From Escherichia phage vB_EcoD_Fulano1, in the sequence record OL539459.1: DNA of 51,759 nucleotides; one strand, given 5' to 3'. Below, piece by piece: positions 7,809 through 13,525 of the stretch. How positions within the stretch are numbered: the stretch's first letter is position 1; each line of letters begins with the position of its first letter. A model generated the notes under the pieces. It was not told where the DNA came from and did not search any database. It saw only the letters and a list, made by a program, of their open reading frames with translations. The position numbers and the translations under genes were made by a program.

Positions 7809-8225
7809 ATGGTTGATGAATTTTTCACTGACGCAGAAATCACGCAGCAAATCGTGAAATTAGCGCCACCGATGAAACAGATTGATCCAGATTTAATGGT
7901 GGCATGGATTGATCTGGCAAAGGAATTTGTTTGCAAGAAGCGGTTTAAAGAATCATATCCTAAAGCGGTTGCTCTTTATACGTTGCACCTTATGACGCTT
8001 GACGGAGCTATGAAGCAAGAGGGGGAAAGCGTAGAGAGTTACTCACGGCGCGTGGCGTCATTTTCCCTGACTGGTGAATTTAGCCAGACATTTGATCGCG
8101 TGTCCGGCGATTCAAGCGGAAAAGAGATCAGGCAAACCCCGTGGGGTAAAATGTATGAGACGTTAAATAGAAAAAAAGGCGGTGGATTTGGCCTTGTGAC
8201 TGGATTTCGGAGGCGCTGCAAATGA
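7809..8225 (+). CDS. putative head-tail adaptor
   Basis: 138 aa, RBS GGAGG, first of four translationally coupled genes between capsid and major tail. Confidence 0.45.
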
Positions 8226-8593
8226 ACTATAACGAGATCGCAAGAATGGCAACCGAAGGAATTAACTTCTTTAGTGATAGCGACGGTGAGTTTAAGTGCA
8301 TAACGCAGCGTGGAAGCGTTGAAATCATCGGAGGCGAAGAAGTAGAAAAGCCAGAGATTAGTGTAATGATTAAGGGTTTAATTAGATCACCCAAAGTCCG
8401 AGAGGTTGACGGCGAGACAATACGAGTAACCGATAAGTTGGGAGTTTTTAACAATAAAGTTGAAATTAAGAACGGGTATCATATTGATGTTGATGGTGAA
8501 TTATATGTTGTAGTTGAAGCAAGACCAATCAGACAAACCAATGTCACAGTTGCTTATCGGCCTATTTTGAGAAGGATTTCCGTGCATGGCTAA
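8222..8593 (+). CDS. putative head-tail joining protein
   Basis: 123 aa, start overlaps previous stop (ATGA). Confidence 0.4.
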
Positions 8594-9422: not shown

Positions 9423-10085
9423 ATGCATTTACCAAATGGATCGCAAATTTTCGTTGAGAGCAATCGCGGAAGCGAAATCCAAGCAACAGCAGTGTCAAAC
9501 GCCAAAGATCCTGTTTTCACTGTTGCATCTGGCGGCACTGCGTACAAGAAAGGTGATTATGTGATCATCACTGCGTCTTCTTGGGGTAAGCTGATTGATC
9601 GTGTTATGCGTGTAAAGGCTAACGGTGAAGAAACAAGCGTGACTCTTGAAGGTGTAGATACTACTGATCAGAACGTTTTCCCGACTGGCGGTACTGCATC
9701 TTTTGCCAAAATTGATGCATGGACTGAGATCCCTTGCGTTCAGGATTTGTCGCAGGACGGCGGCGAACAGCAATACTACACTTATCAGTGTTTGGCAGAC
9801 GATCAGGAACAGCAGTTACCTACCTATAAGAGCGCCGTTTCTCTTACCTACACTTTTGCGCACGAATACGATAACGCGATCTATCCGCTATTGCGTTCAG
9901 CAGATGAATCAGGCGCTGTAACGGCGCTTCGCATGTATGTACCAAAAGCAAAAGAGATGCGTTGCTGGGCTGGTGTCCTTTCGTTTAACGAAATCCCGCA
10001 GACCACAGTTAACGAAATGGAAACCGTTTCCCTGTCTGTATCCCTGAAAGGTCGATTCACCTTCCTACCTTCTCAAGTAGCATAA
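9423..10085 (+). CDS. major tail protein
   Basis: 220 aa, RBS AAGGAG, followed by strong terminator; position before chaperone/tape-measure genes. Confidence 0.65.
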   Translation: MHLPNGSQIFVESNRGSEIQATAVSNAKDPVFTVASGGTAYKKGDYVIITASSWGKLIDRVMRVKANGEETSVTLEGVDTTDQNVFPTGGTASFAKIDAWTEIPCVQDLSQDGGEQQYYTYQCLADDQEQQLPTYKSAVSLTYTFAHEYDNAIYPLLRSADESGAVTALRMYVPKAKEMRCWAGVLSFNEIPQTTVNEMETVSLSVSLKGRFTFLPSQVA

Positions 10086-10090
10086 TCACA

Positions 10091-10114
10091 AGGGGCGTTG
10101 CGCCCCTTTTTTTG
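10091..10114 (+). terminator. intrinsic terminator after major tail gene
   Basis: stem GGGGCG/CGCCCC then T7. Confidence 0.75.
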
Positions 10115-10152
10115 TTACTGTACAATCATGCTACACGATTCATAATCAATTC

Positions 10153-10171: not shown

Positions 10172-10184
10172 CAAGGAGAAAGAA

Positions 10185-10502
10185 ATGTCAAAAATGAAAT
10201 TGACGATTGGGCCGCTTCCTGACTTTAAATTACCAGTGAAATTTGCAATGCCTAACGGAGAAGATCAAACAATTATCTTCACAGTTCGCCACCGCAAAAC
10301 AAGTGAGATTCACGAGCGCTACACGTCAGATACTCCAATGAGAGATGTTGAAATGATCACCTTCCTTGCTTCAGGTTGGAATCTTGATGATGAATTTAAC
10401 GAAGAAAATATTAAACAGCTTCTTGATTACTACCCAGCAACAGCAATCGGATTAACTAGCGCATACATGAAAGCGCTTGCGGGGCAGCGAGTAAAAAACT
10501 AA
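10185..10502 (+). CDS. tail assembly chaperone (lambda G-like)
   Basis: 105 aa between major tail and tape measure genes; ends VKN-stop inside slippery heptamer. Confidence 0.7.
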   Translation: MSKMKLTIGPLPDFKLPVKFAMPNGEDQTIIFTVRHRKTSEIHERYTSDTPMRDVEMITFLASGWNLDDEFNEENIKQLLDYYPATAIGLTSAYMKALAGQRVKN

Positions 10503-10813
10503 AAAGGGCGGTTTACCTGTTTTATCAGAAACCGCCGACAGATGCAGAGCTTGAGGCCGTTGGCCTTACAAGGGCAGACTATGAAGGAGAAGATCCGCCA
10601 GAGGTTATATTTGATGAAAGCATGATGCAATCATGGGATATATTTTGCGCAATGAAAACGCAATGGAGATGTTCTGGCGGTGGCGCTTACGGATTTGATT
10701 ATAATGTCTTGCCTATGCTTTTTGAGATTTACAAGGTTGAGGATCGCGAGATGGCGCTAAACGACTTGCGAATCATGGAGCAAAAAGCACTTGAAATGAT
10801 GCATTCAAAATAA
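10185..10813 (+). CDS. tail assembly chaperone GT-like fusion via -1 frameshift
   Basis: slippery A_AAA_AAC at 10493-10499 in 0-frame; -1 frame is open from 10499 to stop 10811-10813. Confidence 0.6.
10493..10499 (+). promoter_or_regulatory. -1 programmed ribosomal frameshift slippery heptamer AAAAAAC
   Basis: X_XXY_YYZ in frame with chaperone codons AAA-AAC immediately before stop TAA. Confidence 0.6.
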
Positions 10814-10833
10814 GCGCCTACGGGCGCTTTTTT
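10812..10833 (+). terminator. intrinsic terminator
   Basis: stem AAGCGCC/GGCGCTT then T-run; overlaps stop of GT frame. Confidence 0.65.
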
Positions 10834-10852
10834 ATTACCTGGAGGATTAATA

Positions 10853-13525
10853 ATGTCAGAACAATACGCAGGTTTGACGCTTGGGGTTGACGTTTCTCAA
10901 CTCAACAATGCTGTAAAGTCTTTGCAGCAATTCAAGAAGGCAAACGACGACGCAAAGGGGAGCGTTGAGAGTTTTGTTGATTCAGAGGTTGTTGCAAGAC
11001 AAAGAGCCAAACAACTGGCTGAGGAATTGGCAAAGCAGAAGCAAGAATTTAAAGCAATTCAGTCGGCAATAGATCCGACAGCAAGCAAAATGGATAAGTT
11101 GCGCCAGGCTGCGACACAGCTTGATGCGCTTTGGAAAAAAGGAATTGTGCCGGATGATACATTCTTTGAGTTAGGATCAATTCTTGAGACGCAGCAAAAC
11201 AAACTGATCGCAACTAAAAAGGCGCTAACTGAAGAAGGTCGCGCGGCGCTTGAGGAAGCAAAGAATAAAGCCAGGGCAGAGGCTGAGGCCAGAAAGTTCA
11301 TTGCGGCATTGCAGGCGCAAGCTGAAGCAGCCGGAAAAAGCAAGTCTGAATTGCTGGAAATGAAAGCGGCACAGCTTGGAGTTAGCCAAGAGGCGGCGCC
11401 TTACATCGCAAGACTGAAAGAGCAGGAAAAGCAGATTCAAAAACTTGGGATTTCTATGGGGCAGTACAAGCAAGCAATGGCGCAATTGCCAATGCAGATC
11501 ACTGACGTTGTTACTTCTCTTGCTTCAGGTATGCCAGTATGGTTGATCGCAATCCAGCAGGGCGGGCAAATCAAGGACTCATTTGGCGGTGTTGCTAACA
11601 CGTTTAAAGCGCTAATGACATTTGTCACGCCTTTAAGTGTAGGAATGACGGCGCTGACTGGTGCGCTTGGTTATGCTGCATATAATGCATACAAAGCAAA
11701 TGCGCAACTGAAGGAGATCACAAAAACCGTTCAGGAGGCAACTGGTCTTTCTGGTGATTTTGCGGAGCGGATTGCAACTGGAATCCAGGCGCTATCTGAC
11801 AAGACAGGTGAGAGCGCCGACAATCTGGCAAAGGCATACATAAGCACTAAGGATGGAGCAACCGAGGCCATACAAAAACTAGTCGATGTTGGATTTACCT
11901 ATGACGAAGCAAAGGCAAAAGTAAACGAATACAAAAACGCATCAAGTTTTGTAAGTCTTAACAATGAAATTGCTGATCACAAAAACAAAGTTCTTGAGCT
12001 TGGCGATTCATGGTATGCGGTCTTAAAAGCAAAACGTGATTATGCTTCACCGTCCGGCGGGCTGTTGGGGAAAGAGCTTGGTTATGTGAATCCAATGCTG
12101 CAATTTGCGAAGAACACCTATGAGGATATAGGAAAGATTGTAAAAGATGCGAATAAGGATATGGCGGAACGAGCAGCACGCATCGACAGAGAAAACCTTT
12201 CCTTAAACAGAGTTCGAGCGGCGCAAGAGGCTTTAAACAAAGCCATAGAGGATCAGAAGAACGTAGCAAGGACAGCAGACGAAGAGTTGAAGAAGCGCGC
12301 GGCTGAGAACGTGGAGTTCAGGCGAAAAGAGCTTGAAGAGGCGAAGAAGGCGCAGCAGCAAAAGGAAAAAGTTGGTGGAGTTGTAAAAGCACCAACAGAG
12401 CAGCTTGATAAGGAGCTATATGTTCTCAAGGCGCAACTTGAAACGCTGAAAGAGCACAGAACTGTAAATGATGTTATTTCACGCCAGAGGAAATCTTTGT
12501 GGAGCATTGAAAAGCAGATCCAGATCCTTGAGGAAGCGCAAAGTAAACGAAAGCTGACAAAAGCGGAACAGGCGTTACTAAACGAGCAAAAAGCAGTTAT
12601 TGCTATGGCAAAAGAAAAGGCAGAGATAGGCGATCAGATTGTTTTGCAACAGAGAAAGAACAAGCAATACCAGGAAGGGCTTAAATTCATTCAGCAAACA
12701 TCAGATGCTATTGACGCTATGAACTTGCGACAGTCTGGAGCTACAGATCTGCAAATCCAGCGAGAGCTTGAGTTGAAGAAGTTGCGAACTGATTATGTTG
12801 CTGGCGGCGGTAGTATCGACGATGAAATTTATCAGCAGATGGAAGCAAAGCTGAAGGAGTATTACGCCACTGAGGATCAACTTAGAAATAACTGGATTGC
12901 AGGAGCAAAGAACGCATGGGAGGTTTACGGACAAGATGCAATGGATATGTACGGCAACGTGCAAGATATTGCAAGCGAGGCGCTCAACGGTCTAACCAAC
13001 CAAATGGCTACATTCCTTGCAACAGGTAAGGCAAATTTTAAGAGCTTCGCAACGTCAATCATCCAAATGATTATTCAGATGATCACAAAGATGGTTATCT
13101 TTAATGCCATATCTGGTGCGATTGGCGGTGACACTTGGACGATTGGAAGCCTTCTTAAAAATGTTGGATTTGCAACTGGTGGATACACTGGAGACGGCGG
13201 CAAGTATGAGCCAGCAGGTGTTGTTCATAAAGGCGAGTTTGTCATGACTAAGGAGGCCACGAAGCGGATCGGAGTTGGAAATCTTTACAAAATGATGCGC
13301 GGTTATGCAAATGGCGGCGTTGTTGGTGGATCTTCATACACTGGCGGCGGCGTTTCATCTGGAGCCACAAATCTTAATATTGGCGGGATCAGCGTTGATA
13401 TTAACAACGGAAGCGATCCGAAAGGGTTGGAGACTGGCGTAAAAATGATTTTCACTGATATGATTAAGCGTTCCTGTACGCAGGGTGGGGAAGTTTACGA
13501 ATTTGTTATGTCTAAGCGGGGGTGA
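10853..13525 (+). CDS. tape measure protein
   Basis: 890 aa, coiled-coil-rich N-terminal half, hydrophobic Gly-rich segment near C-terminus; lambda-like position. Confidence 0.85.

What the first reader, a model, noticed from the sequence alone, without database searches (positions are those of the whole stretch)
10185..10813. Programmed -1 frameshift (A_AAA_AAC) joining two tail assembly chaperone frames
The 0-frame chaperone ORF ends AAA-AAC-TAA (10494-10502). The heptamer A AAA AAC (10493-10499) is a classical slippery site, and the -1 frame is open from 10499 to 10813 (about 105 more codons, including the track ORF 10622..10813). This reproduces the lambda G/GT arrangement between major tail and tape measure genes.
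Basis: partly seen in the sequence, partly recalled or inferred. Interest (0 to 1): 0.5.

Follow-up and report, generated by a model that had tools for sequence, protein, structure and literature searches.

The report
Tail chaperone G/GT frameshift, already known
This T1-like coliphage makes a second, longer tail-assembly chaperone when ribosomes occasionally slip back one base at A_AAA_AAC; the trick is real here but already annotated in its close relatives, so it is an ordinary feature that this genome's own annotation missed.

Summary
ORF 10185..10502 (105 aa, Pfam Phage_TAC_4) ends GTA AAA AAC TAA. The heptamer A_AAA_AAC (10493-10499) is in phase. The -1 frame is open 10460..10813 and adds 104 codons carrying Pfam DUF1799. 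The pair sits between the tail tube gene and the tape measure gene.

On its own the layout is not rare: 11 similar mechanical cases occur in the window. Comparison settles it. In 90 non-identical relatives (24-100% identity) the -1 frame runs 99-111 codons past the stop, against a +1 control median of 17. The slip site changes sequence but stays slippery and in phase (AAAAAAC, GGGAAAC, TTTAAAC, GGGAAAG). The 123 nt before the annotated ATG 10622 evolve as -1-frame coding sequence, with no start codon or Shine-Dalgarno.

The window is Escherichia phage vB_EcoD_Fulano1 (Drexlerviridae). Phages TLS (tfmS) and Sazh already annotate the joined frameshift product, and the genome announcements for phages Stevie and U136B mention it. 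A hairpin 7 nt downstream is a candidate stimulator, but only in part of the family. Nothing was tested experimentally.

The parts
9423..10085 (+). Major tail tube protein gene (upstream neighbour; by analogy with lambda, the likely binding partner of the T part)
   Evidence: ORF; Pfam Phage_tail_3 2e-64; annotated as major tail protein in relatives
10090..10116 (+). Intrinsic-terminator-like hairpin plus T-run between the tube gene and the G gene
   Evidence: 8-bp stem, 6 GC pairs, then TTTTTGTT; phage Sazh annotates a terminator at the equivalent place
10173..10179 (+). Shine-Dalgarno AAGGAGA serving the G start codon at 10185
   Evidence: Sequence; anti-SD duplex energy -8.5 kcal/mol
10185..10502 (+). 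G-like tail assembly (tape measure) chaperone, the 0-frame product, 105 aa (FULANO1_15, UGV22617.1)
   Evidence: Pfam Phage_TAC_4 106.3 bits against a cut-off of 21.1; exact match in the protein collection
10493..10499 (+). Slippery heptamer A_AAA_AAC, the proposed site of the -1 tandem tRNA slip (Lys in the P site, Asn in the A site)
   Evidence: homologous in-phase heptamers in 82 of 90 relatives: AAAAAAC 61, GGGAAAC 14, TTTAAAC 6, GGGAAAG 1
10500..10502 (+). 0-frame stop codon TAA directly after the heptamer; possibly a pause element
   Evidence: the stop directly follows the heptamer in 79 of 90 relatives as TAA, TGA or TAG
10507..10536 (+). Hairpin GGCGGUUU..CUG/CAG..AAACCGCC, 7 nt after the heptamer; candidate frameshift stimulator restricted to one clade
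   Evidence: -15.1 kcal/mol, z = -4.3; paired in about 25 of 35 distinct relatives and lost without compensation in the rest; four-fold sites 10510 and 10534 unusually invariant
10499..10813 (+). T-like segment read in the -1 frame (104 codons plus stop at 10811-10813); the GT fusion is 10185..10499 joined to 10499..10813, 209 aa
   Evidence: Pfam DUF1799 on fusion residues 127-206, i.e. starting at 10562, upstream of ATG 10622; third-codon-position bias in the -1 frame over 10499-10621
10622..10813 (+). The 63-aa ORF annotated in the source record as a separate hypothetical protein (FULANO1_16); here read as the C-terminal part of GT, not an independent gene
   Evidence: no Shine-Dalgarno (-2.7 kcal/mol); Met at this position in only 54 of 90 relatives
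10812..10835 (+). Terminator-like hairpin (bidirectional) between the T segment and the tape measure gene
   Evidence: phage Sazh annotates a terminator at the equivalent place
10853..13525 (+). Tape measure protein gene (downstream neighbour; by analogy with lambda, the likely binding partner of the G part)
   Evidence: Pfam TMP_2 4.7e-35 and Tape_meas_lam_C 6.5e-22

Best explanation
Most ribosomes translating the chaperone gene 10185..10502 stop at TAA 10500 and release the 105-aa G-like chaperone. A small fraction slip back one base on A_AAA_AAC. The P-site Lys-tRNA moves from AAA 10494-96 to AAA 10493-95, and the A-site Asn-tRNA moves from AAC 10497-99 to AAA 10496-98. Decoding then resumes at CUA 10499 and continues to 10813. 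The product is a 209-aa GT-like fusion with the junction ...QRVKN-LKRAVY...

By analogy with lambda, the shared G part binds the tape measure protein and the T part (DUF1799) recruits the tail tube protein. The low slip rate would then set a low GT:G ratio needed for correct tail assembly.

Shown here: the sequence anatomy, the family memberships, the conservation of the arrangement, selection on the slip site at the nucleotide level, and coding-type evolution of the stretch that has no start codon.

Inferred: that slippage actually happens, its rate, the tandem two-tRNA mechanism, any help from the adjacent stop codon and the downstream hairpin, and the binding partners.
For: 1. Anatomy.

2. 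Protein families: Phage_TAC_4 on fusion residues 1-105 and DUF1799 on 127-206, both above Pfam's cut-offs. phrog_17368 covers residues 1-208 at 2.5e-101.

3. Conservation in 90 non-identical loci (24-100% G identity). The -1 frame extends 99/105/111 codons (min/median/max) past the G stop. The +1 control extends 1/17/84.

4. Slip-site covariation. The residues before the stop vary: VKN, AKN, TKN, LKN, EKN, QGN, SGN, EGN, TGN, MGN, KGN, RLN, LGK. [quoted passage not shown] The 8 exceptions keep an in-phase A_AAA or A_AAG tetramer.

5. The 123 nt from 10499 to 10621 contain no ATG, GTG or TTG in the -1 frame. Yet pairwise differences fall 25/19/56% on -1-frame codon positions 1/2/3. Genuine coding controls give 25/18/56% and 30/15/55%.

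6. No independent start. ATG 10622 has no Shine-Dalgarno (-2.7 kcal/mol, against -8.2 to -9.3 for neighbouring genes). It is Met in only 54 of 90 relatives. The first -1-frame ATG lies anywhere from -41 to +57 codons, and none of the 90 has a strong Shine-Dalgarno.

7. Among the 150 best of 418 T-domain representatives, the domain sits in small orphan ORFs of 50-145 aa, never in-frame behind a G-sized domain.

8. Relatives annotate the joined product: TLS tfmS and Sazh 'Tape measure chaperone frameshift product'. The genome announcements for Stevie (PMC4319613) and U136B (PMC8104045) mention it.

9. A_AAA_AAC is a proven, low-efficiency -1 site in E. coli, used by an IS cluster described as a proven case (PMC4066793). 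The lambda G/GT mechanism is summarised in PMC5009743.
Against: There is no experimental evidence for this phage, and I found no direct protein evidence for GT in any T1-like phage.

A_AAA_AAC is a poor slip site in E. coli. This fits a low GT:G ratio but also means the rate could be very low.

The bare configuration is not rare in this genome: 11 mechanical cases.

Eight of the 90 relatives lack a classical heptamer.

The downstream hairpin is not conserved across the family, and an upstream Shine-Dalgarno-like stimulator is not supported.
Confidence: 0.9

Rival explanations
1. There are two independent genes, as the source record annotates them: the 105-aa chaperone, and a separate 63-aa protein started at ATG 10622. 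No recoding takes place.
For: ORF 10622..10813 exists and is annotated as its own CDS in this phage and most close relatives. Gene callers in other genomes also call stand-alone T-domain ORFs.
Against: ATG 10622 has no Shine-Dalgarno (-2.7 kcal/mol, against -8.2 to -9.3 for neighbouring genes). The Met is present in only 54 of 90 relatives. The position of the first -1-frame ATG is scattered, and no locus has a strong Shine-Dalgarno before it. The 41 codons upstream of the ATG evolve as coding sequence in the -1 frame. The DUF1799 match starts 20 codons upstream of the ATG. This model also gives no reason for the conserved in-phase slippery site.
Confidence: 0.04
2. The frame change is made by RNA polymerase, not the ribosome. 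Transcriptional slippage on the A6 run (10493-10498) adds or removes an A in a fraction of mRNAs, and those mRNAs then encode GT in frame.
For: A homopolymeric A6 run lies at the junction. One relative's assembly differs by one A in this run (L005).
Against: Six As is short for productive bacterial transcriptional slippage (general knowledge; the topic is reviewed in PMC5009743). Many relatives have GGGAAAC or TTTAAAC at the same place, with runs of only three identical bases. These cannot support polymerase slippage but are classical ribosomal slip sites in the correct phase. The conserved phase of the heptamer matters only to the ribosome. The L005 record is flagged UNVERIFIED_ASMBLY, so its five-A run is most likely an assembly error.
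Confidence: 0.03
3. A mechanistic variant giving the same product: the slip happens after translocation, when the stop codon TAA occupies the A site. The Asn peptidyl-tRNA, alone or together with the E-site Lys-tRNA, re-pairs from AAC to AAA during slow termination. The adjacent stop codon would then be the main stimulator, and the GT:G ratio would depend on release-factor activity.
For: The 0-frame stop directly follows the heptamer in 79 of 90 relatives, although its identity varies between TAA, TGA and TAG. A stop codon close to a -1 site matters for frameshifting in pea enation mosaic virus (PMC5009743).
Against: Conservation of heptamer position 1 (X_XX) across AAA, GGA and UUA variants shows that the upstream tRNA must also re-pair. 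This fits classical tandem slippage and is not needed for a slip of the P-site tRNA alone. Three relatives have a sense codon between the heptamer and the stop, and lambda has five. No experiment bears on this question.
Confidence: 0.25

Closest known systems
Phage lambda G/GT tail assembly chaperones (programmed -1 frameshift at G_GGA_AAG; Levin, Hendrix and Casjens 1993; Xu, Hendrix and Duda 2004, 2013, 2014, as summarised in PMC5009743)
   Same: Two overlapping ORFs lie between the major tail protein and tape measure genes. The second ORF is in the -1 frame, has no start of its own, and is reached through an in-phase X_XXY_YYZ heptamer near the end of the first. The short product is expected to be abundant and the fusion rare.
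   Different: No detectable sequence relationship. Lambda G and T are Pfam Phage_TAC_2 and Phage_tail_T. The window's parts are Phage_TAC_4 and DUF1799, and hhalign probabilities are below 1%. The heptamer is A_AAA_AAC, not G_GGA_AAG. The 0-frame stop follows the heptamer directly, whereas lambda has five codons in between. The window's G (105 aa) and T (104 aa) parts are shorter than lambda's (140 and 144 aa).
Annotated frameshift chaperones of T1-like phages: TLS tfmS (NC_009540, YP_001285532.1) and Citrobacter phage Sazh CPT_Sazh_047 ('Tape measure chaperone frameshift product')
   Same: They are orthologous: same subfamily (Tempevirinae), 74% nucleotide identity over the region, the identical AAAAAAC-TAA junction, the same -1 extension, and in Sazh the same annotated flanking terminators.
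   Different: The difference is only in annotation. The window's own record (vB_EcoD_Fulano1) and most Hanrivervirus records list two separate CDSs. RefSeq names both 'tail length tape measure protein'.
-1 frameshifting at A_AAA_AAC in E. coli IS elements (IS1 family)
   Same: The same low-efficiency heptamer is used in E. coli to make a small amount of a fusion protein. The proven IS cluster has no established stimulator (PMC4066793).
   Different: The proteins and biology are unrelated: a transposase, not a tail chaperone. The stop-codon context also differs.
E. coli dnaX gamma/tau frameshift (A_AAA_AAG with an upstream Shine-Dalgarno-like element and a downstream hairpin)
   Same: An A-rich Lys-codon heptamer in E. 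coli, and in the window a stable hairpin 7 nt downstream.
   Different: The A-site codon is AAC, which is far less slippery than AAG in E. coli. No convincing upstream Shine-Dalgarno-like element was found. The hairpin is restricted to one clade. In dnaX the slip produces a truncated protein at high rate; here it would produce an extended protein, presumably at low rate.

Membership tests
Lambda-type G/GT tail assembly chaperone frameshift (arrangement class of Xu, Hendrix and Duda 2004) | Two overlapping ORFs located between the major tail (tube) gene and the tape measure gene | tested here: met
   Tube 9423..10085, G 10185..10502, T frame to 10813, tape measure 10853..13525
Lambda-type G/GT tail assembly chaperone frameshift (arrangement class of Xu, Hendrix and Duda 2004) | An in-phase slippery sequence inside the overlap of the two frames | tested here: met
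   A_AAA_AAC at 10493-10499 within the overlap 10460-10502; it is the only in-phase heptamer in the G ORF
Lambda-type G/GT tail assembly chaperone frameshift (arrangement class of Xu, Hendrix and Duda 2004) | The downstream frame has no translation start of its own | tested here: met
   No ATG, GTG or TTG in the -1 frame over 10460-10621. ATG 10622 has no Shine-Dalgarno and is not conserved.
Lambda-type G/GT tail assembly chaperone frameshift (arrangement class of Xu, Hendrix and Duda 2004) | The arrangement is conserved among relatives even where the sequence diverges | tested here: met
   90 loci; four different heptamers, all slippery and in phase; -1 extension of 99-111 codons
Lambda-type G/GT tail assembly chaperone frameshift (arrangement class of Xu, Hendrix and Duda 2004) | The fusion protein is made at a low ratio to G and is required for tail assembly | not testable with these tools
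   Needs protein detection and genetics
Pfam PF08748 Phage_TAC_4 | Score above the family's gathering threshold | tested here: met
   106.3 bits against 21.1; residues 1-105 cover the full profile 1-124
Pfam PF08809 DUF1799 | Score above the family's gathering threshold | tested here: met
   46.8 bits against 26; fusion residues 127-206 on profile positions 2-80
Lambda gpG (PF06894) and gpT (PF06223) sequence families | Detectable sequence or profile similarity | tested here: not met
   No Pfam hit to either family. Lambda G and T hit only their own families. hhalign probability is below 1% with the 7- and 90-sequence profiles.
dnaX-type stimulated -1 frameshift | Shine-Dalgarno-like element about 10 nt upstream of the heptamer | tested here: not met
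   Window -5.0 kcal/mol; family median -3.2, against a control median of -1.9 and a control 10th percentile of -5.7
dnaX-type stimulated -1 frameshift | A conserved stable structure 5-8 nt downstream | tested here: inconclusive
   The hairpin 10507-10536 is -15.1 kcal/mol with z = -4.3, and two four-fold sites in it are constrained. However it is lost without compensation in about 10 of 35 distinct relatives, and covariation is weak.
Programmed transcriptional slippage | A long homopolymer run conserved at the junction | tested here: not met
   Only A6 in the window; relatives carry GGGAAAC or TTTAAAC

The most novel reading that the evidence does not exclude
In this chaperone family the slip site is built almost without exception as X_XXA_AAC directly followed by the stop codon. 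These heptamers are known to be efficient on eukaryotic ribosomes and poor on E. coli ribosomes. The T1/TLS/pSf-1 clade adds a hairpin 7 nt downstream. The arrangement could be a termination-coupled frameshift 'rheostat', in which release-factor kinetics and the hairpin, not the heptamer, set the GT:G ratio. That would differ mechanistically from lambda G/GT, which is reported to need no stimulator.
Probability: 0.2. Interest if true: 0.3.

Novelty: already known. Interest (0 to 1): 0.12.

Why it matters
The practical value is in annotation. The source record (vB_EcoD_Fulano1), and most Hanrivervirus and many other Drexlerviridae records, list two separate hypothetical or mis-named proteins; RefSeq calls both 'tail length tape measure protein'. 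The correct annotation is a chaperone plus a joined ribosomal-slippage product, and the 209-aa fusion is not in the protein collection I checked.

Correct annotation matters for phage engineering and for studies of tail assembly. It also matters for defence research: a 2026 preprint reports Avs17 receptors that bind the N-terminal chaperone core shared by the short and long isoforms.

Biologically this is one more instance of a textbook mechanism. The only mildly interesting points are the family-wide preference for low-efficiency ...A_AAC heptamers directly followed by the stop codon, and a hairpin restricted to one clade.

Tried and rejected
- Word-indexed protein search with the fusion: only two hits, both T-part ORFs. 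Uninformative, so loci were collected through DNA and peptide-pattern searches instead.
- PDB sequence search with the fusion: no meaningful hit (best E = 0.45, an unrelated kinase domain).
- Structure prediction was not attempted.
The -1 part was searched instead.
- Homology to lambda G and T: tested and rejected.
- Upstream Shine-Dalgarno-like stimulator (GGGG at 10481-84): rejected. It is no stronger than control positions inside G, and the Gs come from a conserved Gly codon.
- A hairpin conserved across the whole family: rejected. It is specific to one clade. Folding the longer 68-nt stretch gave an unremarkable z of -1.1.
- Transcriptional slippage and independent initiation at ATG 10622: considered and rejected (see the rival explanations).
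- Xu et al. 2004 (Mol Cell) is not held in the library, so I could not check whether T1 is in their table. Two early literature calls failed on term-format rules.

Full report
**What is there.**
- ORF 10185..10502 encodes 105 aa and ends GTA AAA AAC TAA.
- AAAAAAC at 10493-10499 is in the X_XXY_YYZ phase and is the only in-phase classical heptamer in the ORF.
- The -1 frame is open from 10460 to the stop at 10811-10813. From 10499 it adds 104 codons, which include the mechanical ORF 10622..10813.
- A -1 slip on the heptamer would give a 209-aa protein with the junction ...QRVKN-LKRAVY...
- Upstream is the tail tube gene (9423..10085, Pfam Phage_tail_3, 2e-64). Downstream is the tape measure gene (10853..13525, TMP_2 and Tape_meas_lam_C).
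- Further downstream lie ORFs in the positions of the lambda M, L, K and I genes; this is judged from gene order only.

**Identity of the window.**
The region is 97.6% identical to Hanrivervirus phages (Drexlerviridae, Tempevirinae; the T1-like coliphages). Exact protein look-up identifies the window as Escherichia phage vB_EcoD_Fulano1, 51,759 bp. Its record lists the two ORFs as separate hypothetical proteins, FULANO1_15 and FULANO1_16. Neither possible version of the fusion sequence is deposited.

**Protein families.**
- The 0-frame part is a full-length Pfam Phage_TAC_4 domain (1.7e-30).
- The -1 part carries DUF1799 (3.6e-12) on fusion residues 127-206. The domain therefore begins at 10562, 20 codons upstream of the ATG that annotators use.
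- One PHROG profile (phrog_17368, 213 positions) matches residues 1-208 of the hypothetical fusion at 2.5e-101, so fusion-length proteins of this family are already in phage databases.

**Is it more than chance?**
Within the window alone the evidence is weak. A mechanical six-frame scan finds 11 cases of an open frame of at least 60 codons, a -1 frame open at least 50 codons past its stop, and an in-phase heptamer in the overlap. In addition, 11.5% of such stops have a -1 extension of at least 103 codons.

The case rests on comparison with relatives. I collected 100 related loci from GenBank phages, IMG/VR and GTDB genomes. The quantitative analysis used the 96 held at that stage plus the window. 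After removing two broken records and identical copies, 90 loci remained, ranging from 24% to 100% G-protein identity.
- The -1 frame stays open 99/105/111 codons (min/median/max) past the G stop. The +1 frame, used as a control, stays open 1/17/84.
- The slip site itself shows covariation. The last residues of G vary: VKN, AKN, TKN, LKN, EKN, QGN, SGN, EGN, TGN, MGN, KGN, RLN, LGK.
- In the 82 loci with a classical heptamer, the third base of the codon before the slip codon always matches the next two bases. This gives A_AAA_AAC (61 loci), G_GGA_AAC (14, three of them one codon before the stop), U_UUA_AAC (6) or G_GGA_AAG (1).
- The 8 loci without a classical heptamer keep an in-phase A_AAA or A_AAG tetramer one codon earlier. 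A_AAG is the classic shift-prone tetramer in E. coli.
- This pattern shows selection on the nucleotide sequence in a defined phase, not on the protein. Ribosomal slippage predicts exactly that.

**The stretch between the heptamer and ATG 10622.**
- This stretch of 123 nt has no ATG, GTG or TTG in the -1 frame.
- Among 56 collinear relatives, pairwise differences fall 25/19/56% on -1-frame codon positions 1/2/3. The last 41 codons of G give 25/18/56%, and the T part after the ATG gives 30/15/55%.
- The stretch is therefore translated, and not from a start codon of its own.
- ATG 10622 has no Shine-Dalgarno (-2.7 kcal/mol). The G, tube and tape measure starts score -8.5, -8.2 and -9.3.
- The residue at that position is Met in only 54 of 90 relatives.
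- The first -1-frame ATG lies anywhere from -41 to +57 codons relative to the slip site, and none of the 90 has a strong Shine-Dalgarno.
- An exhaustive HMMER search with the -1 part found 418 representatives. In the best 150 the domain always occupies a small orphan ORF of 50-145 aa and never sits in-frame behind a G-sized domain. The one exception is a cohesin scaffoldin that is almost certainly a false hit.

**Mechanism.**
The most likely mechanism is classical tandem slippage. The Lys-tRNA on AAA and the Asn-tRNA on AAC re-pair on AAA AAA, and decoding resumes at CUA 10499.
- Conservation of heptamer position 1 across the AAA, GGA and UUA variants shows that the upstream tRNA must also re-pair.
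[quoted passage not shown] They are nevertheless used by IS elements, including one cluster described as a proven case with no known stimulator (PMC4066793; PMC5009743).
- A low rate fits the lambda model. There G and GT are needed at about 30:1, G binds the tape measure protein, and the T domain binds the tube protein (PMC5009743). These roles are inferred for the window by analogy. They were not tested.

**Possible stimulators.**
- A hairpin at 10507-10536 (GGCGGUUU/AAACCGCC plus CUG/CAG) starts 7 nt after the heptamer. It folds at -15.1 kcal/mol with z = -4.3 against shuffles.
- Two four-fold degenerate sites in its stem are unusually invariant. Site 10510 (Ala GCN) has G in 37 of 43 (entropy 0.72). 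Site 10534 (Pro CCN) has G in 34 of 36 (entropy 0.37). Neighbouring four-fold sites have entropy 1.2-1.9.
- However, the hairpin is present in only about 25 of 35 distinct junction sequences, those of the T1/TLS/pSf-1 clade. It is lost without compensation in the rest, and covariation is weak.
- It is therefore a candidate stimulator restricted to one clade, not a defining feature.
- An upstream Shine-Dalgarno-like element is not supported.
- The 0-frame stop directly follows the heptamer in 79 of 90 loci, although its identity varies. Whether it contributes by slowing termination is an open inference.

**Rivals.**
- Independent initiation at ATG 10622 is contradicted by the points listed above.
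- Transcriptional slippage on the A6 run is unlikely. Relatives have GGGAAAC or TTTAAAC at the same place, which a polymerase cannot slip on, and the conserved phase matters only to the ribosome.
- The one record with five As is Shigella phage 2019SD1. It is flagged UNVERIFIED_ASMBLY, so it is most likely an assembly error.

**Comparison with what is known.**
- The arrangement matches lambda G/GT, but the proteins are not detectably related. Lambda G and T are Phage_TAC_2 and Phage_tail_T, and hhalign probabilities against the window's parts are below 1%.
- Lambda uses G_GGA_AAG with five codons before the G stop.
- Within the T1-like phages the frameshift is already recognised:
  - TLS annotates a two-piece CDS, tfmS.
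  - Sazh annotates a 'Tape measure chaperone frameshift product', flanked by two terminators as in the window.
  - The genome announcements for Stevie (PMC4319613) and U136B (PMC8104045) mention it.
- I could not read Xu et al. 2004 to check whether T1 itself is listed there.

**Verdict.**
The feature is already known in this phage family, so interest is low (0.12). What remains useful is the annotation fix for this record and many sibling records. There is also a small open question: why does this chaperone family so consistently use low-efficiency ...A_AAC heptamers directly followed by the stop codon?

Noticed in passing
L005:1809-1815 (IMGVR_UViG_2974632794_000001, the 53,145-bp contig of Shigella phage 2019SD1): The A-run at the slip site has five As where all other relatives have six. 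The G frame therefore runs on to a +1-frame TGA (a 122-aa product) and the G/T arrangement is broken. The GenBank protein is flagged UNVERIFIED_ASMBLY, so this is most likely a homopolymer assembly error and not biology.
   Followed up: partly
L066 (IMGVR_UViG_2706796530_000001), match 1501-1808: A second relative with a broken G/T junction: the G match length is not a multiple of three, and the -1 extension is only 13 codons. Probably an indel or sequencing error.
   Followed up: no
window 10090-10116 and 10812-10835: Two intrinsic-terminator-like hairpins with T-runs bracket the G/T unit, one after the tube gene and one before the tape measure gene. Sazh and vB_EcoS_G29-2 annotate terminators at the same places. 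The chaperone genes thus sit between two possible attenuation points inside the tail operon.
   Followed up: partly
window 8171-8177 (gene 7809..8225, Pfam DUF4054): There is an in-phase A_AAA_AAA heptamer (an A7 run followed by G) 16 codons before the stop. The -1 frame from there is open into the next gene, 8222..8593. That gene has its own ATG with a GGAGG Shine-Dalgarno, so this is probably fortuitous. Conservation in relatives was not checked.
   Followed up: partly
GenBank hits H40, H41, H43, H44, H56, H87; L092 and L093: About 20 'Campylobacter phage A1xx' records and 'Streptococcus phage MBBL140' carry T1-like coliphage sequence, 74-77% identical to this region in the best-matching records. 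MAGs labelled Fibrobacter sp. and Peptococcaceae contain T1-like contigs. These are probably mislabelled hosts, contamination or binning errors.
   Followed up: no
RefSeq records NC_049853, NC_049852 and NC_009540: RefSeq names both the G-like chaperone ORF and the T ORF 'tail length tape measure protein', the same name as the true 890-aa tape measure protein. This is a systematic naming error that has spread through PHROG descriptions.
   Followed up: no
P0116 (2,059 aa): A protein with 14 cohesin domains (a scaffoldin) scores E = 5.6e-7 against the T part through eight weak repeated stretches. This is almost certainly a false positive from summed repeat scores.
   Followed up: partly
L034, L036, L037, L092 (GCA AAG GTC/CCC TAA) and L055-L058 (GCA AAA GTT TAA): Eight relatives lack a classical heptamer and keep only an in-phase A_AAG or A_AAA tetramer one codon before the last sense codon. 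This suggests that some lineages rely on slippage of a single P-site Lys-tRNA.
   Followed up: partly
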